Positions 1-12,441 of a DNA stretch of 14,223 bases are shown here, piece after piece. The DNA lies in the UHGV virus genome UHGV-0168750. The stretch is one strand, 5' to 3'. The translations under genes were made by a program, and so were the position numbers. The notes beneath the pieces were generated by a model. It did no database searches, was not told the origin of the DNA, and saw only the letters and a program-made list of their open reading frames with translations. Within the stretch, counting starts at the first letter, position 1; the number at the start of each line of letters is the position of its first letter. Source of the DNA: a virus.

Positions 1-48
1 TCTACACGTAAGGAGTCGTCGGCAGCGTCAGATGTGTATAAGAGACAG
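1..48. other. Library artefact: Illumina Nextera-type adapter (P5 tail TCTACAC, 8-nt index GTAAGGAG, read-1/Tn5 mosaic-end adapter)
   Basis: Positions 16-48 read TCGTCGGCAGCGTCAGATGTGTATAAGAGACAG, the Nextera read-1 transposase adapter; 1-7 TCTACAC is the 3' end of the P5 primer and 8-15 GTAAGGAG sits where the i5 index belongs (from memory this is index 505). Exact string match read directly. Confidence 0.9.
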
Positions 49-49
49 G

Positions 50-280
50 CTTATTATTTATACAGCTGAGGAAACACACTGGCTCGGGTTGCTAGACGGT
101 AAATTTGAATCTCGTATATTGAATAAAAACACGATTTGGGCAACGGGCTCAGGTCAAGCTTTTGCTCGTGCAGCCTGGGCAACAGGTATAAGCGAAAAGA
201 ACATTATTCCATTAGTAGGATCAATTGATACCGCCACATCGGAAACGTATGACTTATTTTACAGGAAGCACTTACGATGA
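50..280 (+). CDS. Hypothetical protein, 5'-truncated at the adapter/contig boundary (C-terminal ~76 aa only)
   Basis: Open frame running out of the adapter to TGA at 278-280; the first six codons of the ORF-track call (32-49) are adapter sequence. Stop overlaps the next start (ATGA). Contains a GSGxAFARAA motif. Confidence 0.45.
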   Translation, partial: LIIYTAEETHWLGLLDGKFESRILNKNTIWATGSGQAFARAAWATGISEKNIIPLVGSIDTATSETYDLFYRKHLR

Positions 281-798
281 AGATAAACGCAGTTTTAATT
301 GGCGATGAAATTTACGTTAATACAAAAACGCAATATTTGTATTACGAAGGCATTACTGTAATAGACGATTACTACGGTAAATACGGTTGGTGGATTCCGT
401 CCCCTAATTCTTTACGGTTAGAAGAAGCATTAACTGCCGAAGAGAACAATCTGGAAAAGGAATGGAGTTATATCAGTTCCGTCATTGACGTCAGCGGTCG
501 AATTAAAGATGTCTACTGGGCTAAGGAATCAGGCTGGCGTGTTACACTTCACCAATCTGCACCAGTAAGACTGCTGTACGACCACTCGGACACATCGGAG
601 TTAGCGTTTACCATTGAGACGCTCTCGCTACGTAAAGATTTAGATAACGTGGGTAAAGGGAAGTGGTCTATTGAACGCGTGGAGGAGATTCTCAGTCACT
701 TTAAAGCCAACAACAAATTTAAACGTTGGTGTACATTACCTGAGTTAGTAGAAGAGTTGAAAAAGCGGGATTGCAAACCGCTACCTTTTAACCCGTAG
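277..798 (+). CDS. Hypothetical protein (173 aa)
   Basis: ATG at 277 overlaps the upstream stop (ATGA); uninterrupted 173-codon frame; co-directional operon context. No motif recognised. Confidence 0.6.
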   Translation: MKINAVLIGDEIYVNTKTQYLYYEGITVIDDYYGKYGWWIPSPNSLRLEEALTAEENNLEKEWSYISSVIDVSGRIKDVYWAKESGWRVTLHQSAPVRLLYDHSDTSELAFTIETLSLRKDLDNVGKGKWSIERVEEILSHFKANNKFKRWCTLPELVEELKKRDCKPLPFNP

Positions 799-843
799 TC
801 TTTTTTACAACTGCGGCTATTTTAATGATTAGGAGAAAAGAAA

Positions 844-1308
844 ATGAAATGTTTTGAATCTAAAGAAATTGTTGAGTTGTTTAAACAGCGTGAGAAAACC
901 GCTTTCCGTGACCTGTACGATTCTGATTATCGCCCACTGTTTGCGGTATTGTTGAAACTGGATAAAGAACCCGAAATCGCATTAGCAGAGGTACAGCACC
1001 ACCACGTCAGTTTCGTATTAACCGAAAACATGAGCCGGTGGGTAGATGCTATGCTGATCCGTATTGGGCTCTTGGAAACGCCACACCGTTGGGAAGTGGT
1101 TATTCAGAAATCATTATTCCCACGTGAAGACATTTTCAACAAATATCGTCCGAAACAGTATTACAACCACGACGGGTCGCCAAAACGTGCTTTCCTGGCA
1201 CCGCAACACTTCGTAACCTACGTAACATTGCGTTACAAAGACACCGTGGTGCCGTTTGACACCTACCTGGAAATGCGTGAGATAATTTTAGGGAAGAATC
1301 CGTCATGA
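844..1308 (+). CDS. Hypothetical protein (154 aa)
   Basis: AGGAG at 831-835, 8 nt upstream of ATG 844; stop overlaps the next start (ATGA at 1305-1308). Confidence 0.65.
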   Translation: MKCFESKEIVELFKQREKTAFRDLYDSDYRPLFAVLLKLDKEPEIALAEVQHHHVSFVLTENMSRWVDAMLIRIGLLETPHRWEVVIQKSLFPREDIFNKYRPKQYYNHDGSPKRAFLAPQHFVTYVTLRYKDTVVPFDTYLEMREIILGKNPS

Positions 1309-1787
1309 TTCAATTTTCTGTTGACTCAGAAAGACTGGCGTCGTTTAAAGAGCGTGCTCAGTCTGCAACTAAAAACGGTTACATTGAGAAAGGTGTTCGT
1401 GATACTTGTAAACTAATCAACGACCATCCACATCTGGCAACAATGTGGAGTTGTGAAGGTCACGGTATGTATTCCAAGTCGCCAGGAAATCTGCATATCG
1501 TTTTTGCAGTACATGCCCTCGGGAATCAAATTCCGATGCAGGTTATGTCCGAGCTTGCAAAATCCGATCTTCCCAATTTCTGGAATCTTAGTTTGTGTCG
1601 TCTTTATCTACCCGATGAATATACAGATTTGGTATATCTTGAACCTGATTACGGGTTAAATACCGACGACACTTCTTACTGGGCTTGGAAAGTCGGATAC
1701 ATGTGTCTGATTAATCGTCCCGCATTAGTCGAAACACGTCAAGCACTTTATAAAGCATTTCACACTGTATTAGTTGAGAATAAATAA
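1305..1787 (+). CDS. Hypothetical protein (160 aa)
   Basis: ATG overlapping the upstream stop; stop TAA overlaps the next ATG (TAATG at 1785-1789). Confidence 0.6.
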   Translation: MIQFSVDSERLASFKERAQSATKNGYIEKGVRDTCKLINDHPHLATMWSCEGHGMYSKSPGNLHIVFAVHALGNQIPMQVMSELAKSDLPNFWNLSLCRLYLPDEYTDLVYLEPDYGLNTDDTSYWAWKVGYMCLINRPALVETRQALYKAFHTVLVENK

Positions 1788-2479
1788 TGGCTACCAAACA
1801 AAAGAAACCTCGTAACAAAAAGTATAACCCGAAAGCAGCAGCTAACCGTACCGCACACACCATCGCTGAAAACGCATTAAACCGCATTACTTTTGTCGGT
1901 AGCTCGATTCGCCCGATCGGTCCGTACGCGGGCCGTGGTTTCCAGTTTACAACCTCACCGCGTATGCGTATGGCGGCCACTGATATGCTAATCGGCGGTT
2001 TGTTTGACGAGCCGCGTAACTGGAAGCTCTGGGTTGCCCATCTGTACGAAACTGACAATGGCGTTCAAGCAGAAACCATCGTAGCAACTCTTGATGACTA
2101 TACGTTGAGTGATTTCTGTCAGCACGGTGATAAAATCATTAAGTCACTCCGCGAGACAGAAGAAAACTACTTTGGTTATGCTTTTGTTGCAGCACCAAAC
2201 GAACGTTATGATTTCGACCAGGGAGAAGAACGCTTACTGGAAAACTTCATGCATTCTGGACTGTTAGACAAATCCTTACACCTACCTGAAGAAGAACTGA
2301 TGGTTACGCGTAAGGATATGGTAACGTTACTGTTAGCCGATCGTGGTCGTTTTGATATCACTGAATCGCATGTACGTAAAGTACAGAAACTCGTGGATAA
2401 GGTAGACGAAACTGACCTGGACACTAGCGAAGTGGCAACCCGTATCCAATCGGTGGTCAATCAGGAAGAGGATTATTAA
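1787..2479 (+). CDS. Hypothetical protein (230 aa) with a basic Lys/Arg-rich N-terminus and an acidic C-terminus
   Basis: Long uninterrupted frame; N-terminus MATKQKKPRNKKYNPK; TAATG coupling to the upstream gene. Confidence 0.65.
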   Translation: MATKQKKPRNKKYNPKAAANRTAHTIAENALNRITFVGSSIRPIGPYAGRGFQFTTSPRMRMAATDMLIGGLFDEPRNWKLWVAHLYETDNGVQAETIVATLDDYTLSDFCQHGDKIIKSLRETEENYFGYAFVAAPNERYDFDQGEERLLENFMHSGLLDKSLHLPEEELMVTRKDMVTLLLADRGRFDITESHVRKVQKLVDKVDETDLDTSEVATRIQSVVNQEEDY

Positions 2480-2481
2480 AC

Positions 2482-3003
2482 GTGATAGCGAGACTTGCGA
2501 GTTGGTTTAAGCAACGTCGGGCAAAGGCGGTCGAATGGCCGCCTATTACGCACGATGAAAAGGTGGTTGCTTTTCTGAACTATAACAAAGACTTGAAGAG
2601 ATTGGGCGAAATAATGCGCCTAAAGGAAACCCAAGTCTTTGCTAAGATTTCAAGTAGTGCTTTACGTAAACAAGTATTTCCCCACCTATCCTTTTCAGGG
2701 CAAGTTTATGCAATAACCGCAGAGAAATTTTTATCGATGGCGGGCAATGAAACCCCACGCATACGGTTCTCGGCTACAGATTCATCTGATGCGGTCGGTA
2801 CAGTTGATTTCGGACGATTCTATCGATGCATTAAAGACGTGGGCCATATACATGTTAAACGGGTATCAGAAACATCTGTAGTGATTTATCACCGTACTGA
2901 GAATGATTTGTTAGGGCGTGTTATAACGTTAACGAATTTACATAGTTTTTACGTTGATTTACTCACTGAGTTTTATCCAGAACCATGGTGTTTTATACGA
3001 TGA
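2482..3003 (+). CDS. Hypothetical protein (173 aa), GTG start
   Basis: GTG at 2482 lies 2 nt after the upstream TAA, preceded by AGGAAGAGGA; stop TGA overlaps the next ATG (ATGA at 3000-3003). Confidence 0.55.
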   Translation: MIARLASWFKQRRAKAVEWPPITHDEKVVAFLNYNKDLKRLGEIMRLKETQVFAKISSSALRKQVFPHLSFSGQVYAITAEKFLSMAGNETPRIRFSATDSSDAVGTVDFGRFYRCIKDVGHIHVKRVSETSVVIYHRTENDLLGRVITLTNLHSFYVDLLTEFYPEPWCFIR

Positions 3004-3212
3004 ACAGAGCTAATGGATATATCATCTCGGCAATTGTTTCAACCGTGCTGATTGTGACGATGTTGATGTTTTATGTCCGTGTGTCAGATGACTCACGCAA
3101 AGAAAGCCTTTATCGTGAATGTATGTCGGGAACGACTGTGGACAATCCGCGTTACAGCGAATTGGTAATGGCGTGCACAGAACATGCTAAGCTAATGGGA
3201 GATGGCCGATGA
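3000..3212 (+). CDS. Small membrane protein (70 aa) with one N-terminal transmembrane helix
   Basis: ATG at 3000 in an ATGA overlap; hydrophobic stretch YIISAIVSTVLIVTMLMFYV followed by a charged tail. The ORF-track start at 2985 is rejected because it overlaps the upstream gene. Confidence 0.5.
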   Translation: MNRANGYIISAIVSTVLIVTMLMFYVRVSDDSRKESLYRECMSGTTVDNPRYSELVMACTEHAKLMGDGR

Positions 3213-3406
3213 AGATTTGGTTACCGATTGTAGCTTTTGTTCTTATTGCGGGCGCACTAGCAAGTGCCGAGTGTGACAATCGTGTTTTAGAAAAGAAAAG
3301 CGAATTGTATCAGGATTGCATAAAGGACTACACACCCGGTACAGAGCTTCATGCGCAGGCTGTAAAAAGTTGTGCGCTGATGGCTGAATCGCAGACTCGT
3401 TCCTAA
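3209..3406 (+). CDS. Small secreted or periplasmic Cys-containing protein (65 aa) with a signal-peptide-like N-terminus
   Basis: MKIWLPIVAFVLIAGALASA then ECDN; four Cys in the mature part; ATGA overlap with the upstream gene. No canonical lipobox. Confidence 0.5.
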   Translation: MKIWLPIVAFVLIAGALASAECDNRVLEKKSELYQDCIKDYTPGTELHAQAVKSCALMAESQTRS

Positions 3407-3780
3407 TGCGTATCTGGACGTTACAGCTTGCTAAGTGGCGGTTAGCGAAATCGAAGGGATTTTACGCGGTAGATATTACAGTCAAATCAGGGCGAAAGGA
3501 ACTCGCCCCCGACTGGGATTTCTTAATGGCGTATAAAAACTCCACAAAGGACGCAACTGCTGAAGCCGACTATACCGTAAAGTATCTTTACAAGCTTGAA
3601 CGATTACTGGACTCAGATGCCGAAGTGTTGGTATCGTTACTTAGGCACGAAGACCTGGTGCTGATGTGTTATTGTCCCGCAGGTAAGTTTTGCCATCGAC
3701 ACTTACTGGCTAAGAAACTTCAAGACGTCGGAATGATGTTCGGTTTTGACGTTGAGTTATGTGGAGAATTAACGGACTGA
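3406..3780 (+). CDS. Hypothetical protein (124 aa) with a C-x-C-x6-CHR motif; possibly DUF488/YeaO-like
   Basis: TAATG coupling; motif LVLMCYCPAGKFCHRHLLAKKL near the C-terminus. Family assignment is from memory of the DUF488 pattern, not a search. Confidence 0.5.
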   Translation: MRIWTLQLAKWRLAKSKGFYAVDITVKSGRKELAPDWDFLMAYKNSTKDATAEADYTVKYLYKLERLLDSDAEVLVSLLRHEDLVLMCYCPAGKFCHRHLLAKKLQDVGMMFGFDVELCGELTD

Positions 3781-3807
3781 TTCGATTTTTAGATGTAAAA
3801 TGACCTT

Positions 3808-3852
3808 CTACCGCCCGATTCTATGGGCGGTAGGTGTTTTTATTTTTTTTTT
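3808..3852 (+). terminator. Rho-independent terminator closing the upstream small-gene block
   Basis: Perfect 9-bp stem CTACCGCCC (3808-3816) / GGGCGGTAG (3825-3833), 8-nt loop, then a T-rich run (3835-3852) including ten consecutive T. Confidence 0.65.
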
Positions 3853-3868
3853 GATCTGGGAGGTTTTA

Positions 3869-4429
3869 GTGGCCACTTACGTACCTGATTTAAGCCTGAC
3901 CTCAGCCGAATTAGTGGTCGCTTTAATCAACCACGATAACGGTTCACAGTTGTCTTTAAGAGAAATTCGTATTAGCAACACTGTGGTAAACCCGTCTCCG
4001 ACCACTTCGCGTCGTAACACACTGTCAGAGATTACAAAAATCAGGAAACCTGACGGTGCTTCTGTGGTTGTTTATTACGATCGCTTAGATGCGGAAGAAG
4101 TATTAGCTTCTGAACCTATTTTGATTTCGTTAGACGGTACTGAAGATAACATTCGTGACATTTTAGATGTTGTAAATGAATTCTGCGGAACGAACTTACA
4201 GCCTGACGATTTGCGCGCTTCAGATATCACATTAGGTAACGATCCCATTGCTGTTAACGTTGCTGACGATTCTCCTGCGTGGATGAATGCGTTTATGGTG
4301 ACGTTATTCGATACAACCGAACGAGCATTAGCCAACGAAGAAGACGCGATCTTCTGTATTGGCGATGTTGCTGTTCTTACATTTGAGGTTCCAGATGGCG
4401 ACTCAGCTGAAGAAAACCCGACTACATGA
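3869..4429 (+). CDS. P1a: conserved small protein (186 aa), paralogue of 13013-13528; likely tail-fibre-associated
   Basis: GTG at 3869 preceded by GGGAGG (3858-3863). N-terminus VATYVPDLSLTS..LINHD matches MGQFVPDLSLTS..LINHD of the paralogue; shared motifs KIRxP, YYxRLxAE, CG(T/S)NLQP(D/E)DL, VLTF. The ORF-track start at 3800 lies inside the terminator hairpin. Confidence 0.6.
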   Translation: MATYVPDLSLTSAELVVALINHDNGSQLSLREIRISNTVVNPSPTTSRRNTLSEITKIRKPDGASVVVYYDRLDAEEVLASEPILISLDGTEDNIRDILDVVNEFCGTNLQPDDLRASDITLGNDPIAVNVADDSPAWMNAFMVTLFDTTERALANEEDAIFCIGDVAVLTFEVPDGDSAEENPTT

Positions 4430-4856
4430 ACTTGACAGTTTTACCGGTGACCCACAGGGCGGGGTATTACTGTTTAGTAAAGAGAATAAAGAATACAAAA
4501 TTAACGCCGAACAGTTACTACCAACGAACACCGTAACTACGGTAAACGGTGCTGACGGCACGGCAACGATTAATCCAAATAACGTTACTGACGTTATACT
4601 GGTATTAAACGATCCTGCGACAACCTTAACTATCTCCCCGTTAACGGAAGCCAAAGCAAACGTTCGGGTTGAGTTTTATTTAACCGTTAAGCAAGGAACA
4701 GGGGCGAATAAGATTACTTGGCCGGATAATGTAAAATGGCCACATAACGCAACTCCTGTTTTGTCCTTTACAGCTAATGCGGAAGATACATTAGCGTTCT
4801 ATACGCTTGATGGTGGGACTACGTGGAAAGGTTCCCTCATCGCCGCAGGTTACTAA
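4395..4856 (+). CDS. P2a: small protein (153 aa) carrying the shared N-terminal module (putative virion-docking domain)
   Basis: ATG at 4395 preceded by GAGGT; residues 5-40 KKTRLHELDSFTGDPQGGVLLFSKENKEYKINAEQL align with the N-termini of the long fibre and of 13528-14148. Overlaps P1a by 35 nt. Confidence 0.6.
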   Translation: MATQLKKTRLHELDSFTGDPQGGVLLFSKENKEYKINAEQLLPTNTVTTVNGADGTATINPNNVTDVILVLNDPATTLTISPLTEAKANVRVEFYLTVKQGTGANKITWPDNVKWPHNATPVLSFTANAEDTLAFYTLDGGTTWKGSLIAAGY

Positions 4857-4858
4857 CG

Positions 4859-7800
4859 ATGAGAAAAACTTTTCAACGACACGCTATTTCTTACGCACTG
4901 TCGTTAGCCTACGGGCACCAAACATTCGTTACTCGAAATACGGGGACAACGAATGATGCTCACACAGACCACTTTATTCAGAATGAAGAAGGGGTCTTAG
5001 CTAATAACCGTCACTTTATTGCAGATACGATGGCGGAGTACCAGCCCAATGGTGATGCAACGACCGAAGGTCAATCGCTACACATCCTTGGGTACTGTCA
5101 TCTGTATATTGCAACTAAAGACCCAAGATGGTTAGATGCAGCAAAACATGCATGGGATGCTTACACTACCTACTTTTACGGTGGGCAAGCTATTCCGACT
5201 ACACCTCAGCGTTTTATTTGTAACTGGTTAGTAAACGGAAAAGAGCCGGTACTCGCGCACTATCCGATACACCCAACAGAACCTACACACGGTGGTTACA
5301 AATGTGTACCCGTCAGGTTCACTAACGGTCAGTGCAAAATACCACACGGTGCACCGTTCTGGGGTGAATATCTAGACACCTTTACGTTTGCTCATCGTGG
5401 TCATCCAACGTGGGGTGCTATTAATGCGGACGTACAGATTATCAAGGAGGATAAAGAAGGGTTAATCGATTGGGATGCTGTGTTAACGCATCTGATTACG
5501 AATCCCGATAAACCTTACGAAACGAAAGCCTGGGTTGACTGGCCAACGTTACTGAACAACGCTACTGGCTACACACCGCTGTGGGGTGGTTCTTCATCAA
5601 AAGGACCTAAGCACGATGTCGACTGGATAGTTGCCTGGACAGGTAACAAGATTCAGGATAGCGAGATTATTGAGTCGGGCTTAGCAGACGCCGATAAAGG
5701 TACCGTACAGTTAAAAGATACTCAATTAAACGGTGTCTATTTAATTAACTACGCGGTAAAACTTCCTGTCGAGCACGGCGGTTATGCTTTTAAACGTAAT
5801 GAACCGTGGCACAACCGACCCGTACATACACCATTCTTAGGCTCTAAGAACCAGTACGGTAATGCAGCAGATGCAGAACTGTGGTTTATCGACGCTTGTT
5901 ATTTGCTGTGGCGAATTACAGGTGAAGATAAATACAAACACGCGTTAGACTGTGCGTTTTACACCGCACACGAGTATACGTATATTGATGCCGCCGACAA
6001 GTTCTTTAGACGTTCTACGGCCGCAGAAACACCGTTTACCGATGGTATCTCTTACGACTTCGATTATCCCGATACCGTGAGCGTCGAATACGGTCGCGAT
6101 ACGAATGGCGATATCACTATCCACGCACCTAAAGCTGTACAACACTTTATGGAGCAGCAAGCAGTACGTTTTAGAATCAATAAAGATTCTAAGCTCAGAG
6201 TGACGTATGGTGGTGTGTGTAAAAACGGTGACCCGGTATATTGTCGTGCGATGGTTGACATTAATCCGGTAAAGGCTGACACGGAAGAAGTGAACTGGTA
6301 CGGTTTAACGTTACCCCGTTCTACTTCGTTAAGCGTTAAGCAATACGATATTGACTTAGGTCAACTTGCACGGATTACTACCCCAGAAGGGGAAGACTAT
6401 TTAATCGCAGATGCACGAGCCTGCTCGGATTACGGCGGTTGTACGTGGGAAGAACGGTTTGAAGACAATATCTACGATGGTCGTGCGGGTACCATTGTCG
6501 AAGCTTTATTTCCGAATGACGATGCGGGCTTTATTATCGGTTTCTGGTTAACCGAAGCGGAGAAGGTTAAGCCGGTTTCTATCGTTTATCGTGCGGACGC
6601 AGACTTTAACCTACGTTTAGTTGATTCTGATAACTGGCGTTGGTGGTGGATGTTACCGAACACGAACAACGAATGGCGACAAGTAACCTTAAATTTAGAG
6701 GACGCGACGTTATCGGGATACCAACCTGACCACACTGACGCTGATCCTGAGCCTTCAGCACCTAACTTCGATAAGGTTGACCAGGTTACTATCCTGCCCG
6801 ATTCTGCTGTAGACCACGCTCACTTTGCTTACTATTGCGTGAATGATGTCCCGCCGGTCTTTAATAAAGATGATGGGTATATCCTCACGTTCCGTATCGC
6901 TTTACGCGGTGGGAGTGAGTTTGACGCAAAAGTCGGCGATTGTACCATCAAAGACTATCGTTTAGACTCACTGGCGTATTGTCCTGGGACGATTCCGTTC
7001 TCGAATATTTATTCAGAAGGGTCTGAACAGCTCGGTGCATGGCACGGTATGCCCTACCCAGGTTATCAATATCCGTTTATGTACGCAATACACAAAGATG
7101 ACCGGTATAAACTGTGGTTAGAGAACCAAATACAGTTTATGCATGACTCGCAAATTGCGTATCAAAAACAGATTGGTGAGTTAGGGCCAGGTTGTGCAGC
7201 CTATATCTGGAATCGTTGGGATAACTACAGTTACGGAAAACCAGATACCTGGACAACATTCCATTGGGGTGACGATCACCCCTGGGCAGGCTACCAACCG
7301 CGCGCATTTCATGCTGCCTGTCGGTGTTGGTACGAGTTAACGTTACGAGGCAAATCAGTTCCTGAGACGTTAACAACCTATATCGAGAATTGGGTGAATT
7401 GGTTAGGTGGGTTTGTGGATAGGTTTAATGGCCACACGCCAAACGAGTTCCCCACAGCACCGAATAAGCCGGTTTGGGTAGAAGACGACTTTACAGCGCA
7501 TATGTGTGCGCTGTGGTTAGCGGGTTGTTGCTGGGCGTTACTTGCCGGTGCGACGAACCCTAACTACGAAAAAGTAGTTAATGCCGCAATTAAAGAGCTC
7601 GGTGACGGGTTTACGATTACGTCAATTCCAAACAAACCCATTAATGGTGCTTGGTCGCCTGCGCCACGAGAGTCTTCGGATAACGGAATGGCTTTTGGTT
7701 TCTATACCGGTGAAGCATTACGTGCTTTAGGACTTTATATCACTTATAAAACTTACGGAGCCAACACAAACATTTATCATGACTTAGCAATCCCAGAACA

Positions 7801-7864
7801 CGAAAGCGCGGTATTAGACGTCACCATCGCCTTAGAAGATGACGCATTAAAACCGGAATTATAA
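4859..7864 (+). CDS. Large Trp/Tyr-rich protein (1001 aa); putative virion-associated carbohydrate-active enzyme (depolymerase-like)
   Basis: ATG at 4859 is 3 nt after the P2a stop, in frame with the ORF-track GTG at 4823. Helical segments such as ADAELWFIDACYLLWRITGEDKYKHALDCAFYTAHEY and AHMCALWLAGCCWALLAGATNPNYEKVVNAAIKELGDG recall alpha/alpha-barrel glycosidases or lyases. Existence of the gene is secure; the function is inferred. Confidence 0.7.
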   Translation: MRKTFQRHAISYALSLAYGHQTFVTRNTGTTNDAHTDHFIQNEEGVLANNRHFIADTMAEYQPNGDATTEGQSLHILGYCHLYIATKDPRWLDAAKHAWDAYTTYFYGGQAIPTTPQRFICNWLVNGKEPVLAHYPIHPTEPTHGGYKCVPVRFTNGQCKIPHGAPFWGEYLDTFTFAHRGHPTWGAINADVQIIKEDKEGLIDWDAVLTHLITNPDKPYETKAWVDWPTLLNNATGYTPLWGGSSSKGPKHDVDWIVAWTGNKIQDSEIIESGLADADKGTVQLKDTQLNGVYLINYAVKLPVEHGGYAFKRNEPWHNRPVHTPFLGSKNQYGNAADAELWFIDACYLLWRITGEDKYKHALDCAFYTAHEYTYIDAADKFFRRSTAAETPFTDGISYDFDYPDTVSVEYGRDTNGDITIHAPKAVQHFMEQQAVRFRINKDSKLRVTYGGVCKNGDPVYCRAMVDINPVKADTEEVNWYGLTLPRSTSLSVKQYDIDLGQLARITTPEGEDYLIADARACSDYGGCTWEERFEDNIYDGRAGTIVEALFPNDDAGFIIGFWLTEAEKVKPVSIVYRADADFNLRLVDSDNWRWWWMLPNTNNEWRQVTLNLEDATLSGYQPDHTDADPEPSAPNFDKVDQVTILPDSAVDHAHFAYYCVNDVPPVFNKDDGYILTFRIALRGGSEFDAKVGDCTIKDYRLDSLAYCPGTIPFSNIYSEGSEQLGAWHGMPYPGYQYPFMYAIHKDDRYKLWLENQIQFMHDSQIAYQKQIGELGPGCAAYIWNRWDNYSYGKPDTWTTFHWGDDHPWAGYQPRAFHAACRCWYELTLRGKSVPETLTTYIENWVNWLGGFVDRFNGHTPNEFPTAPNKPVWVEDDFTAHMCALWLAGCCWALLAGATNPNYEKVVNAAIKELGDGFTITSIPNKPINGAWSPAPRESSDNGMAFGFYTGEALRALGLYITYKTYGANTNIYHDLAIPEHESAVLDVTIALEDDALKPEL

Positions 7865-10900: not shown

Positions 10901-12441
10901 CCCGCGATAGCATCCCAGGGGTAAACGCGACTGGTAATCAAGATACTACCGGTAACGCGGCTACCGCGACGAAGTTGAAAACCGCTCGCAAAATTGGCGG
11001 TGTGAGCTTTGATGGTACTGGGGATATCAATTTACCGGGGGTTAACCAGCAAGGCAACCAGAATACGACAGGTAATGCAGCAACCGCTACCAAGTTACAA
11101 ACCGCAAGAACCATCAATGGTGTTGCGTTTGACGGCACTAAAAACATCGAAATAACGGCTGAAAGTTTAAATCTTGGTCAAACCGTAGAATTGGCCGGTG
11201 GGTCATTGCAGAAAAACCAGAACGGCGCAGATATTCCTGATAAGGGTCGCTTCCTGAGTAACATTAATGTTTACAGCAAAGGCGAGGTGGATGAGAAAAA
11301 AGGAATGCGGCAGTACGTATTTAACGCGCCGTCTAATGCCGTTGGCGGAAAGTGGTATCCAGTTATTTTCCGGCGTTCCACTGGTAGCACCGGCGAACTG
11401 GCTTCCAGAGTAGTTATTACAACTACATCTGCCGGTGGCGATTACGCAATGAATAACTGCGAATTCAATGGAACGGTAATGGCGGGCGGTTGGACTGATC
11501 GCGGTTCATACGCAGCAGGGTATTTTTCGATATATCAGACTAATGAGCGCGCAATCCATTCCATTGTAACAGGTGTGAAAGATGATGATGTGTGCAGCGT
11601 TTTTTACGTCGAAGGTAGGGCTTTCCCTATTCGAGTTTTTGCCGAAGAAGGGTTATCGGTTAGTGTTCCGACCCAGAATTATACCGTCGGTCAAACAACC
11701 TATAAGTGGGGAGCAACTAATCCTGCGACAGAAAGCACGAACGCACAAACCATTTTGGATTTTAACAATGGACGAGGATTTTATTGTTCCCATTCAATAT
11801 TCGCTATTAATAGTATTTTAAGCGGTAATCTGGGTATCGGTACCGCGAATGCTTTAGGTGGGAATTCCATAGTTTTAGGGGATAATGACACCGGTCTTAA
11901 ACAGAATGGGGACGGTATTCTAGATGTCTATGCCAACGGTCGACATGTATACCGTTTTCAAAACGGCATTGCTATTGCTCTTTATGGTGTTCAGGCTGGT
12001 AACGGTAAAAAACTTTCGTTAACTAGCGCAAACAATTCCACGTTGAATGCGGGTCTTAACATTTGGGGTAACTCTTCGCGTCCAACTGTTGTAGAACTCG
12101 GTGATGACGCAGGCTGGCATTTTTATAGCCAACGAAACACCGACAACTCGATATCGTTCGCCGTTAATGGGCAAATTCAACCGGGAAACTGGAGTAATTT
12201 CGATTCCAGGTACCAAGCACGGTCAGGAGTTGTCCAGGATGTTCGTTTCGGTGGTCAAAGTTATCATAACCCCGGGAGTAATACGACCTCTTGGAATTTC
12301 TCCGCTCCAGGTGGTCATTGTCTTACTGGTATTTCTATATCGGATACTGGCAAAAACTCGGCAGATAACGTTAACGGTGTTTATTATCGCCCGCTACAAA
12401 AATTGGTTAATGGTACTTGGTACAACGTCGCGTCGGTATAG
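7939..12441 (+). CDS. Long tail fibre protein (1500 aa)
   Basis: N-terminal shared module [36 protein letters not shown]; Ala/Gln/Thr-rich coiled-coil-like region; tandem ~75-aa domains; four copies of the tail-fibre repeat TGNAxTATKLxTARxIxGVxFDGSGDI; C-terminal [13 protein letters not shown]-type motif; followed by a Tfa chaperone gene. The ORF-track start at 7882 lies inside the hairpin. Confidence 0.85.
9247..10038 (+). repeat. Three tandem ~75-aa domain repeats inside the fibre (a fourth diverged copy at about 10640-10897)
   Basis: Each unit ends in a Trp-rich motif: [38 protein letters not shown], and in the fourth copy [12 protein letters not shown]. Protein-level periodicity; the nucleotide sequences are diverged. 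Confidence 0.45.
10432..10636 (+). repeat. Pair of tail-fibre sequence repeats (~33 aa each) inside the fibre gene
   Basis: [69 protein letters not shown]; the T-A-T-K-L...FDGSxDI pattern is the classical phage tail-fibre repeat shared by T-even and lambdoid side fibres. Confidence 0.7.
10933..11154 (+). repeat. Second pair of tail-fibre sequence repeats
   Basis: [74 protein letters not shown]; same motif as 10432-10636 with many synonymous differences, so an old duplication. Confidence 0.7.

What the first reader, a model, noticed from the sequence alone, without database searches (positions are those of the whole stretch)
277..3003. Five consecutive genes with no recognisable motif upstream of the structural module
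The proteins of 173, 154, 160, 230 and 173 aa showed me nothing I could assign to a family. They are translationally coupled and sit on the upstream side of a terminator, consistent with an early or accessory block; this is where host-takeover and anti-defence proteins typically reside. The 230-aa protein has a strongly basic N-terminus and an acidic C-terminus, a pattern seen in nucleic-acid-binding or mimicry proteins.
Basis: inference. Interest (0 to 1): 0.45.

Follow-up and report, generated by a model that had tools for sequence, protein, structure and literature searches.

The report
Conserved non-virion genes of jumbo phage
The five genes are real, selected, non-structural genes of a giant SPN3US-like ("Seoul-like") phage of Salmonella and E. 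coli; two resemble a tRNA-modifying enzyme and one is a widespread jumbo-phage protein with an unrecognised fold, but nothing shows them to be anti-defence genes.

Summary
All five ORFs exist at the stated coordinates and evolve under purifying selection (dN/dS 0.01-0.25). None reaches a curated threshold in Pfam, NCBIfam, PADLOC or PDB, but four of the five belong to PHROG families of unknown function.

The window comes from a ~225-kb Seoul-like, chimallin-encoding jumbo phage that turns up in hundreds of Salmonella, E. coli and Shigella isolate assemblies.

- **277-798:** always follows, with a start/stop overlap, an HslV-like gene in three phage genera.
- **844-1308 and 1305-1787:** diverged tandem paralogues, homologous to SPN3US gp113/gp114. 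Their N-terminal ~50 residues are homologous to the TYW3/Taw3 methyltransferase active-centre region (hhalign P 1.4e-7). The 160-aa copy keeps a T-x-W-S-C-x-G-H variant of the motif.
- **1787-2479:** the SPN3US gp115 family, found from Seoulvirus to Pseudomonas phage OBP. It is almost invariant (dN/dS 0.01), has a conserved Lys-rich N-terminal peptide, and gave a confident AlphaFold model with no PDB relative.
- **2482-3003:** a fast-evolving ORFan restricted to this clade.

SPN3US homologues are absent from the virion proteome. The early-gene and anti-defence reading is unproven. Interest is modest.

The parts
49..280 (+). 3' part of a 162-aa gene cut off by the contig end and adapter. HslV/proteasome-beta-like lead. 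Context partner of gene 1.
   Evidence: Full-length homologues (L003 8005-8493; Huxley gp125; CR5_121) share invariant M-T-T, D14, K28 and G-S-G. The record for phage pSal-SNUABM-04 gene 116 carries an HslV/proteasome note. hhalign against E. coli HslV gave P 0.006 and score 23, against <=16.4 in shuffles. Pfam and PDB sequence searches were negative.
277..798 (+). Gene 1, 173 aa, phrog_25529. Obligate downstream neighbour of the HslV-like gene.
   Evidence: PHROG E 1.2e-19. ATGA overlap with the upstream gene. Homologues directly follow the HslV-like gene in Machinavirus (Huxley gp126) and in CR5 (CR5_122). dN/dS 0.05-0.12.
801..835 (+). Spacer containing a T-run plus TTACAACT (801-812) and AGGAG (831-835). 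Candidate promoter and start of the transcription unit that holds genes 2-5.
   Evidence: The same motif lies 39-62 nt upstream of start codons in 4 of 13 intergenic regions of L003; only one further copy in L003 falls inside coding sequence. In L010-L012 an extra 131-aa gene is inserted right after this leader. A single window match is not significant on its own.
844..1308 (+). Gene 2, 154 aa. Degenerate paralogue of gene 3; the TYW3-like motif is deleted.
   Evidence: phrog_7413 E 1.3e-3. Pulled in by jackhmmer seeded with gene 3, E 2e-18. Alignment A3 shows the motif region missing. dN/dS ~0.1.
1305..1787 (+). Gene 3, 160 aa, phrog_7413, homologue of SPN3US gp114. N-terminal ~50 residues are TYW3/Taw3-like, with E30 and T47-M-W-S-C-E-G-H53.
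   Evidence: PHROG E 7e-26. 43% identity to SPN3US gp114. Pfam TYW3 E 8.5e-4, 19.2 bits against a gathering score of 27; 7 of 13 family members hit TYW3. The family profile's only PDB hit is 2QG3, the AF_2059 Taw3. hhalign against five archaeal TYW3 sequences: Prob 94%, P 1.4e-7, score 50.9 against <=16.2 in 30 shuffles.
1787..2479 (+). Gene 4, 230 aa, phrog_6965, homologue of SPN3US gp115. Lys-rich N-terminal peptide, alpha/beta core (residues 15-156), low-confidence linker, short acidic C-terminal helix.
2482..3003 (+). Gene 5, 173 aa, GTG start, pI 9.5. Clade-restricted ORFan and the fastest-evolving gene of the block.
   Evidence: No PHROG, Pfam, NCBIfam, PADLOC or PDB hit. No tblastn hit in 50,697 phage records. 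Only 73-97% identical relatives, in four IMG/VR jumbo contigs. dN/dS 0.10-0.25.
3000..3780 (+). Three further coupled genes of the same array: 70 aa (TM helix), 65 aa (signal-peptide-like) and 124 aa (DUF488-N3a, homologue of SPN3US gp120).
   Evidence: Overlapping starts and stops at 3000/3003, 3209/3212 and 3406. Pfam PF22751 E 8e-12. 58% identity to SPN3US gp120.
3807..3850 (+). Intrinsic-terminator-like hairpin (11-bp stem, 7 G-C pairs) plus T-run, closing the array.
   Evidence: It lies in the true intergenic gap: the gene call on the related contig L002 (188 aa, from 12082) maps by alignment offset to GTG 3868 in the window as the start of the next gene (DUF7941).

Best explanation
The region is part of a co-directional array of intracellular (non-virion) genes in a Seoul-like, nucleus-forming jumbo phage. 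It is not one five-gene unit.

**Gene 1 (277-798)** ends an upstream unit. I infer that it works with the HslV/proteasome-beta-like protein encoded immediately before it, as a partner or regulator.

**Genes 2-5**, together with three downstream genes, probably form one transcript. It would start at the T-run/TTACAACT element (801-812) and end at the hairpin at 3807-3834.

- Genes 2 and 3 are a tandem duplicate of a TYW3/Taw3-like domain. The 160-aa copy keeps the acidic residue, the Cys and the Gly of the TYW3 catalytic centre, with Arg replaced by His. I infer that it binds a nucleotide or SAM-like ligand and acts on RNA or DNA. The 154-aa copy has lost the motif and is likely a non-catalytic partner.
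- Gene 4 is a highly constrained protein shared by many jumbo-phage genera, with a fold that has no solved relative. Its conserved M-A-K-x-K-K-P-R-N-K-K-Y-x-P arm most likely contacts nucleic acid or an acidic partner during replication or expression inside the infected cell.
- Gene 5 is a young, basic, fast-evolving accessory protein.

**Shown:** gene reality, paralogy, family membership, synteny, selection, absence of the homologues from the SPN3US virion, and the local TYW3 homology.

**Inferred:** every biochemical activity, the transcript boundaries, and the HslV link.
For: - **ORFs and conservation:**. Purifying selection.
- **SPN3US synteny:** gp114, gp115, gp120 and gp122-124.
- **Non-virion status:** homologues are missing from the SPN3US virion MS list, and gp115 is a core gene of SPN3US/PhiEaH2/CR5 (PMC5105663 supplement).
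- **Provenance:** exact-sequence clusters of 40-591 members from Salmonella, E. coli and Shigella assemblies, on 222-227 kb contigs. These match the 'Seoul-like' persistent, chimallin-encoding phages of bioRxiv 10.1101/2024.12.31.630880.
- **Paralogy of genes 2 and 3:**
- **TYW3 link:**. TYW3 defining residues come from PMC5311493 and PMC2034487.
- **Gene 4:** family breadth, N-terminal motif and model; no solved relative.
- **Gene 1 and the HslV-like gene:** adjacency in three genera.
- **Transcript boundaries:** promoter-like motif and terminator.
Against: - No function has been tested for any of the five families.
- TYW3 similarity covers only ~50 residues, stays below Pfam's gathering score, and changes the essential Arg to His. 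The AlphaFold model of the 160-aa protein failed (pLDDT 38), so the fold is unverified.
- The HslV-like assignment is weak (P 0.006; Pfam and PDB negative). The adjacency could be inherited synteny rather than a functional link.
- The TTACAACT motif is not significant within the window alone, and no transcript data exist.
- No expression-timing data were accessible.
Confidence: 0.5

Rival explanations
1. One reading: an early or accessory block of host-takeover or anti-defence proteins, with the 230-aa protein acting as a nucleic-acid binder or mimic.
For: Homologues are non-virion. Function is unknown, the genes are small, and the region shows variable gene content, such as the extra 131-aa gene in L010-L012. 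Gene 5 is fast-evolving and restricted to the clade. The 230-aa protein has a strongly basic N-terminus.
Against: The 230-aa gene has dN/dS ~0.01 and is 98-100% identical across relatives, and its family spans many genera; this is unlike arms-race genes. Its pI of 5.45 and short, lineage-specific acidic tail do not look like a DNA mimic. Genes 2 and 3 look enzyme-derived. No timing data exist. No library of anti-defence proteins was available to search.
Confidence: 0.2
2. Morphogenetic helpers: non-virion chaperones or assembly factors for the adjacent tail and tail-fibre module.
For: The array lies immediately upstream of virion and tail-fibre genes (DUF7941 gene, gp124-like 1013-aa protein, 1519-aa fibre) on the same strand. 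Assembly chaperones are typically absent from virions (established knowledge).
Against: A terminator separates the array from the structural genes. In N1M2 and SXP01 the annotated genes within 3.5 kb of the gp115-family gene are all hypothetical, apart from a small TPR-2 domain protein and a membrane protein in N1M2, with no annotated fibre genes. The tail module is mosaic and variable between close relatives while the array stays constant. A TYW3-like domain is not a chaperone fold.
Confidence: 0.1
3. Genes 2 and 3 are an active class-IX (TYW3-type) SAM-dependent methyltransferase pair that modifies host tRNA or phage nucleic acid.
For: Profile-profile homology to the TYW3 catalytic-centre segment. 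The acidic residue, Cys and Gly are retained. Neighbours upstream in related contigs include nucleotide- and DNA-metabolism genes: thymidylate kinase and a Dam-type methylase.
Against: In yeast TYW3 the Arg of the motif is essential (R57A is inactive; PMC5311493), and here it is His. The first Ser of the SS pair is Trp. Homology does not extend beyond residue ~53. The proteins are 40-50 residues shorter than TYW3. To my knowledge bacteria lack the wybutosine pathway, so the natural TYW3 substrate would be absent.
Confidence: 0.15

Closest known systems
Salmonella phage SPN3US gp113-gp115 (Seoulvirus) and their PHROG families phrog_7413 and phrog_6965
   Same: Same order and orientation, upstream of the gp120 (DUF488) and gp122-124 homologues. 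43% identity (gp114) and 62% (gp115). Tandem paralogue pair followed by the 230-aa gene.
   Different: SPN3US lacks detectable homologues of genes 1 and 5 in this locus. It carries gp116-gp119 instead, including the degenerate prohead-protease paralogue gp117, to which gene 5 is not similar. None of these proteins has a known function.
TYW3/Taw3 tRNA-yW N4-methyltransferase (Pfam PF02676; PDB 1TLJ, 2QG3, 2DRV)
   Same: The N-terminal extension and the start of the catalytic motif align without gaps: an acidic residue at the D25 position, then T-x-x-S-C-x-G.
   Different: The essential Arg is His and the first Ser is Trp. The similarity ends at about residue 53. The phage proteins are shorter (154-160 aa against ~200). 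The match is below Pfam's gathering score. TYW3 is described only from archaea and eukaryotes in the papers read here (PMC5311493); the hosts here are enterobacteria, which to my knowledge lack wybutosine.
HslV / proteasome beta-type Ntn peptidase (context gene 49-280 and its partner, gene 1)
   Same: Invariant N-terminal Thr after Met, Asp and Lys at HslV-like positions, a G-S-G motif, similar length, and a collinear hhalign alignment.
   Different: No Pfam or PDB sequence support. Gene 1 itself shows no similarity to HslV, HslU or any other family. No AAA+ partner gene lies in the window.
Uncharacterised jumbo-phage proteins OBP_193, AH04_184, pEt-SU_123, N1M2 gp153 and Wellington gp143
   Same: Same family as the 230-aa protein. 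Shared N-terminal K/R peptide, invariant G38 and W79, and the same predicted fold.
   Different: Most are ~210 aa and lack the acidic C-terminal extension. Their genomic neighbours differ.

Membership tests
phrog_6965 (SPN3US gp115 family), 230-aa protein | Full-length profile match | tested here: met
   E 9.1e-81, residues 3-208 on profile positions 2-210 of 211. tblastn 62% identity to SPN3US gp115.
phrog_7413 (SPN3US gp113/gp114 family), 160-aa protein | Full-length profile match | tested here: met
   E 6.9e-26. 43% identity to gp114.
phrog_7413, 154-aa protein | Profile match | tested here: inconclusive
   PHROG E 1.3e-3 over 58 residues. BLASTP against the 160-aa protein finds nothing. 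It is recruited by jackhmmer at E 2e-18.
phrog_25529, gene 1 | Full-length profile match | tested here: met
   E 1.2e-19, residues 3-171.
TYW3/Taw3 (PF02676) | Score at or above Pfam's gathering threshold (27 bits) | tested here: not met
   19.2 bits, E 8.5e-4, residues 11-52 only. Best E among 13 family members was 1.3e-4.
TYW3/Taw3 | Invariant Asp of the N-terminal extension (D25 in SsTaw3; essential) | tested here: inconclusive
   The aligned column is E or D in 13 of 13 phage sequences; it is E30 in the window protein. This is a conservative substitution, not an identity.
TYW3/Taw3 | Signature motif (S/T)xSSCxGR, with Cys and Arg essential | tested here: not met
   The window protein has T-M-W-S-C-E-G-H. 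Thr, the second Ser, Cys and Gly are kept; the first Ser is Trp and Arg is His (nearly invariant His). The 154-aa paralogue lacks the motif.
TYW3/Taw3 | Invariant His at the end of a RAGNYA strand (H73) | tested here: inconclusive
   A partly conserved H/Y (H63) follows the motif, but at a spacing of 10 residues rather than 22, and hhalign confidence is nil there.
TYW3/Taw3 | Three-part fold: N-terminal extension, RAGNYA and SHS2 | not testable with these tools
   The AlphaFold2 model with the only admissible (shallow) alignment failed: pLDDT 38.
TYW3/Taw3 | SAM-dependent methyl transfer | not testable with these tools
   Requires biochemistry.
HslV / T1 Ntn peptidase (context gene 49-280) | N-terminal Thr nucleophile with Asp/Lys and G-S-G, plus a profile match | tested here: inconclusive
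   The residues are present and invariant in 5 homologues. hhalign P 0.006. Pfam and PDB sequence searches were negative.
Virion structural proteins of SPN3US-like phages | Detected in purified virions by mass spectrometry | tested here: not met
   The SPN3US virion table lists gp109, gp123 and gp124 but none of gp113-gp122 (PMC5105663 supplement). This is evidence from homologues, not from this phage.
Known defence-system components (PADLOC-DB) | Profile match | tested here: not met
   No hit for any of the five at E<=0.1.
Known anti-defence proteins | Profile match to a library of anti-defence proteins | not tested

The most novel reading that the evidence does not exclude
Two readings are not excluded.

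(a) The 160/154-aa pair is a phage offshoot of the class-IX TYW3 methyltransferases, working in bacteria that have no wybutosine. That would be a new nucleic-acid modification activity of nucleus-forming jumbo phages.

(b) The invariant Lys-rich N-terminal peptide of the gp115 family is a linear targeting or nucleic-acid-binding signal used inside the phage nucleus. No import signal is currently known for that compartment (bioRxiv 10.1101/2024.03.27.586873).
Probability: 0.12. Interest if true: 0.65.

Novelty: new member of a known kind. Interest (0 to 1): 0.3.

Why it matters
Seoul-like jumbo phages are reported to persist in hundreds of Salmonella and E. coli isolates and to encode the nucleus-shell protein chimallin, yet most of their genes are uncharacterised. 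This analysis gives three concrete, testable handles on the block:

- a TYW3-like motif to mutate;
- a nearly invariant, widely conserved 230-aa protein with a confident model but no solved relative, and a conserved N-terminal peptide;
- a conserved gene pair made of an HslV-like gene and gene 1.

It also corrects the operon anatomy. As it stands, this is incremental annotation of conserved hypothetical genes, not a discovery of a new system.

Tried and rejected
- **Nucleotide search of the whole window against phage records:** only tail-fibre fragments and adapter matches.
- **PDB sequence searches** for four of the five proteins as single sequences (the 154-aa protein only within family profile A3) and for family profiles: nothing significant except the weak 2QG3 hit.
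- **Gene 5 as a homologue of SPN3US gp117** (the degenerate prohead protease): rejected, BLASTP E 68.
- **Gene 1 related to the HslV-like, TYW3-like or gp115 families:** rejected, hhalign P 0.1-0.65.
- **Peptidase_C107 hits in 11 of 62 gp115-family members:** a 34-residue stretch at 12 bits in the two members inspected, treated as spurious.
- **AlphaFold2 of the 160-aa protein:** failed, pLDDT 38, because only near-identical sequences could be supplied. Using a single sequence for the third homologue search was a poor use of that cap.
- **afdb50 fold library:** unavailable.
- **HslU-like AAA+ gene in this lineage:** the IMG/VR scan returned only Huxley itself.
- **Conserved linkage of the gp115 family with DUF488 outside the SPN3US-like clade:** not found.
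- **Other searches:** no Rfam family and no tRNA in the window. The sigma-70 promoter scan was below chance expectation. The SPN3US infection-proteome paper (PMC6384053) is not held. 'SPN3US' plus 'gp115' occurs in no held paper.
Full report
**Observation.** They are genuine genes. The same five, in the same order, occur in two Logan contigs (L002, L003) and four IMG/VR jumbo-phage contigs (L009-L012). Pairwise dN/dS against L002/L003 is 0.05-0.12 for gene 1, ~0.1 for gene 2, 0.08 for gene 3, 0.010-0.015 for gene 4 (59 synonymous against 3 non-synonymous differences) and 0.10-0.25 for gene 5. No protein reaches a curated threshold in Pfam, NCBIfam or PADLOC, and none has a PDB sequence relative. 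Four of the five do fall into PHROG families of unknown function. Rfam and tRNA scans of the window are empty.

**Provenance.** tblastn and synteny place the window in a relative of Salmonella phage SPN3US (Seoulvirus). Gene 3 corresponds to gp114 (43% identity) and gene 4 to gp115 (62%). Downstream, 3406-3780 corresponds to gp120 (DUF488-N3a), 3800-4429 to gp122 (DUF7941), 4359-4856 to gp123 and 4823-7864 to gp124, the tail-associated protein (74%). The exact protein sequences sit in clusters of 40-591 members from Salmonella enterica, E. coli and Shigella isolate assemblies, on contigs of 222-227 kb. This matches the 'Seoul-like' persistent jumbo phages described in bioRxiv 10.1101/2024.12.31.630880, all of which encode chimallin.

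**Anatomy, corrected.**
- Start and stop codons overlap or abut at 277/280 (ATGA), 1305/1308 (ATGA), 1785-1789 (TAATG), 2479/2482 and 3000/3003 (ATGA).
- Genes 1 and 2 are separated by 45 nt carrying a T-run, TTACAACT (805-812) and AGGAG (831-835).
- In the related contig L003, T-rich sequence plus TTACAACT recurs 39-62 nt upstream of start codons in four of thirteen intergenic regions, often just after a terminator hairpin. Only one further copy in L003 lies in coding sequence. The single window copy is not significant by itself.
- In L010-L012 an extra 131-aa gene is inserted directly behind this leader. I therefore read the element as a candidate promoter and a module boundary.
- The only strong intrinsic-terminator-like hairpin is at 3807-3834, after three more coupled genes. 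It lies in the real intergenic gap: the gene call on the related contig L002 (188 aa, from 12082) maps by alignment offset to GTG 3868 as the start of the DUF7941 gene, not ATG 3800.
- The likely units are therefore [... HslV-like gene - gene 1] and [gene 2 - gene 3 - gene 4 - gene 5 - 70 aa - 65 aa - DUF488] followed by the terminator.

**Gene 1.** Its homologues (phrog_25529) occur in Machinavirus phages (Huxley, Machina, pSal-SNUABM-04) and, by iterated search, in Cronobacter phage CR5. In every case the gene directly follows, with an overlap or a 2-nt gap, a ~165-175-aa gene whose product has invariant M-T-T, Asp14, Lys28 and G-S-G. The window holds only the 3' half of that gene (49-280). 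One GenBank record carries an HslV/proteasome note for it. hhalign against E. coli HslV gives a collinear alignment with P 0.006, above 30 column shuffles, but Pfam and PDB sequence searches are negative. Gene 1 shows no similarity to HslV or to the other families in the block. The partnership is inferred from conserved adjacency only.

**Genes 2 and 3.**
- They are diverged tandem paralogues, like SPN3US gp113/gp114 and Wellington gp141/gp142. A full HMMER scan of 1.84 billion representative proteins found only 12 relatives, so the family is small.
- Gene 3 and 6 of 12 relatives hit Pfam TYW3 below threshold. The family profile's only PDB hit is 2QG3 (AF_2059), a Taw3.
- I retrieved five archaeal TYW3 genes. 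hhalign of the phage family against them gives 94% probability, P 1.4e-7 and score 50.9, against <=16.2 for 30 column shuffles and 13.7 for the unrelated gp115 family. The aligned region is residues 5-53 only.
- According to Currie et al. [quoted passage not shown]
- The phage family keeps E/D, T, S, C and G, but has Trp in place of the first Ser and a nearly invariant His in place of Arg. Gene 2 has lost the motif altogether.
- The rest of the protein does not align, and the AlphaFold model was useless (pLDDT 38).
- Conclusion: local homology to TYW3 is well supported. Membership of the TYW3 family and methyltransferase activity are not.

**Gene 4.**
- phrog_6965 matches over its full length (E 9e-81). 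A profile search found 73 homologues in jumbo phages of Salmonella, Erwinia, Cronobacter, Klebsiella, Serratia, Edwardsiella, Aeromonas, Shewanella and Pseudomonas (OBP).
- SPN3US gp115 appears in the SPN3US/PhiEaH2/CR5 core-gene table with no phiKZ counterpart. It is not in the virion proteome table.
- The N-terminal peptide M-A-K-x-K-K-P-R-N-K-K-Y-x-P is among the best-conserved parts of the family (K11 in 59 of 62 sequences, K12 in 56 of 62). Residues 1-25 carry net +8.
- AlphaFold2 with 62 sequences gave pLDDT 83.6 and pTM 0.76. The model has an alpha/beta core (residues 15-156) built of two beta-hairpin-plus-helix units and a further strand-helix, a low-confidence stretch at 188-208, and a short C-terminal helix.
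- The acidic tail is present only in the SPN3US-like subclade (5-7 of 62 sequences) and is modest.
- The near-invariance of the protein argues for a conserved core role rather than an arms-race role. I infer nucleic-acid or acidic-partner binding through the N-terminal arm, but this is untested.

**Gene 5.** It has no homologue in 50,697 phage records and no hit in any family library. It is found only in close relatives, at 73-97% identity. It is basic (pI 9.5) and is the least constrained gene in the block. It is unrelated to SPN3US gp117, which occupies a similar position. It is the only member of the block whose evolutionary pattern fits a lineage-specific accessory or host-interaction gene.

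**Verdict.** The interpretation (an early, anti-defence block) is plausible only in its weakest form: non-structural genes of unknown function. What is new here is:
- the paralogy of genes 2 and 3 and their TYW3-like catalytic-centre remnant;
- the breadth, constraint and unmatched predicted fold of the gp115 family;
- the conserved pairing of gene 1 with an HslV-like gene;
- the identification of the host phage lineage.

None of this establishes a mechanism. Interest is modest (0.3). Novelty: new members of already catalogued families of unknown function.

Noticed in passing
window 1-48: Illumina Nextera i5 adapter...TCTACAC + GTAAGGAG (which I recall as index N505) + TCGTCGGCAGCGTCAGATGTGTATAAGAGACAG. 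The 'MCIRDR' start of ORF 32-280 is therefore an artefact, and real phage sequence begins at about position 49-51. The same ~50 bases match the ends of many unrelated phage records.
   Followed up: partly
window 49-280; L003 8005-8493: Truncated gene for a 162-aa protein with invariant MTT..., D14, K28 and GSG: an HslV/proteasome-beta-like lead. An AAA+ 'HslU-domain' gene lies a few genes downstream in Huxley, CR5 and Wellington, but not in the window.
   Followed up: partly
window 801-812; L003 1580, 2337, 3484, 9019: Recurrent intergenic motif, T-run plus TTACAACT, 39-62 nt upstream of start codons and often right after terminator hairpins. Candidate phage promoter.
   Followed up: partly
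window 3000-3212 and 3209-3406: Two small coupled genes (70 and 65 aa). One product has an N-terminal TM helix and the other a signal-peptide-like N-terminus. By eye they share an E-x-LY-x-(E/D)-C ... C pattern, so they may be paralogous envelope proteins.
   Followed up: no
window 3406-3780: DUF488-N3a protein (PF22751, E 8e-12), homologous to SPN3US gp120, which the SPN3US core-gene table pairs with phiKZ ORF151. Weak PADLOC hits to candidate defence proteins PDC-M45C and PDC-M19A (E ~2e-4).
   Followed up: no
window 3800-3870: The mechanical ORF 3800-4429 begins upstream of, and runs through, the terminator hairpin at 3807-3834. The real start of the DUF7941 virion gene is probably GTG 3868, with GGGAGG upstream, by mapping the L002 gene call (188 aa, from 12082) onto the window.
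   Followed up: partly
window 4449-7754 vs L002/L003: The gp123-like and gp124-like (1013-aa tail-associated) genes are present in the window and in L011/L012 but absent at this position in L002, L003 and L010. The tail module is mosaic between close relatives.
   Followed up: no
window 11071-11793: A segment of the 1519-aa fibre gene is 79-88% identical at the DNA level to tail-fibre genes of P2-like (Peduovirus), P1/P7 and Mu-like phages, indicating horizontal exchange of a receptor-binding region.
   Followed up: no
L010-L012 3971-4366: An extra 131-aa gene is inserted between the homologues of genes 1 and 2, behind the same TTACAACT leader, with an ATGA overlap onto gene 2.
   Followed up: no
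whole window (provenance): Exact copies of all five proteins occur in clusters of 40-591 sequences from Salmonella, E. coli and Shigella isolate assemblies on ~225-kb contigs. This is consistent with the 'persistent virulent jumbo phage' phenomenon (bioRxiv 10.1101/2024.12.31.630880).
   Followed up: partly
SPFM phage records (P0008-P0013): Annotated gp115 homologues in several Salmonella SPFM phages are 139-223 aa and align to only 9-49% of the query, although tblastn finds full-length matches in other SPFM records (SPFM2, 11, 13, 16, 21). This may reflect frameshifts or miscalls in those records.
   Followed up: no
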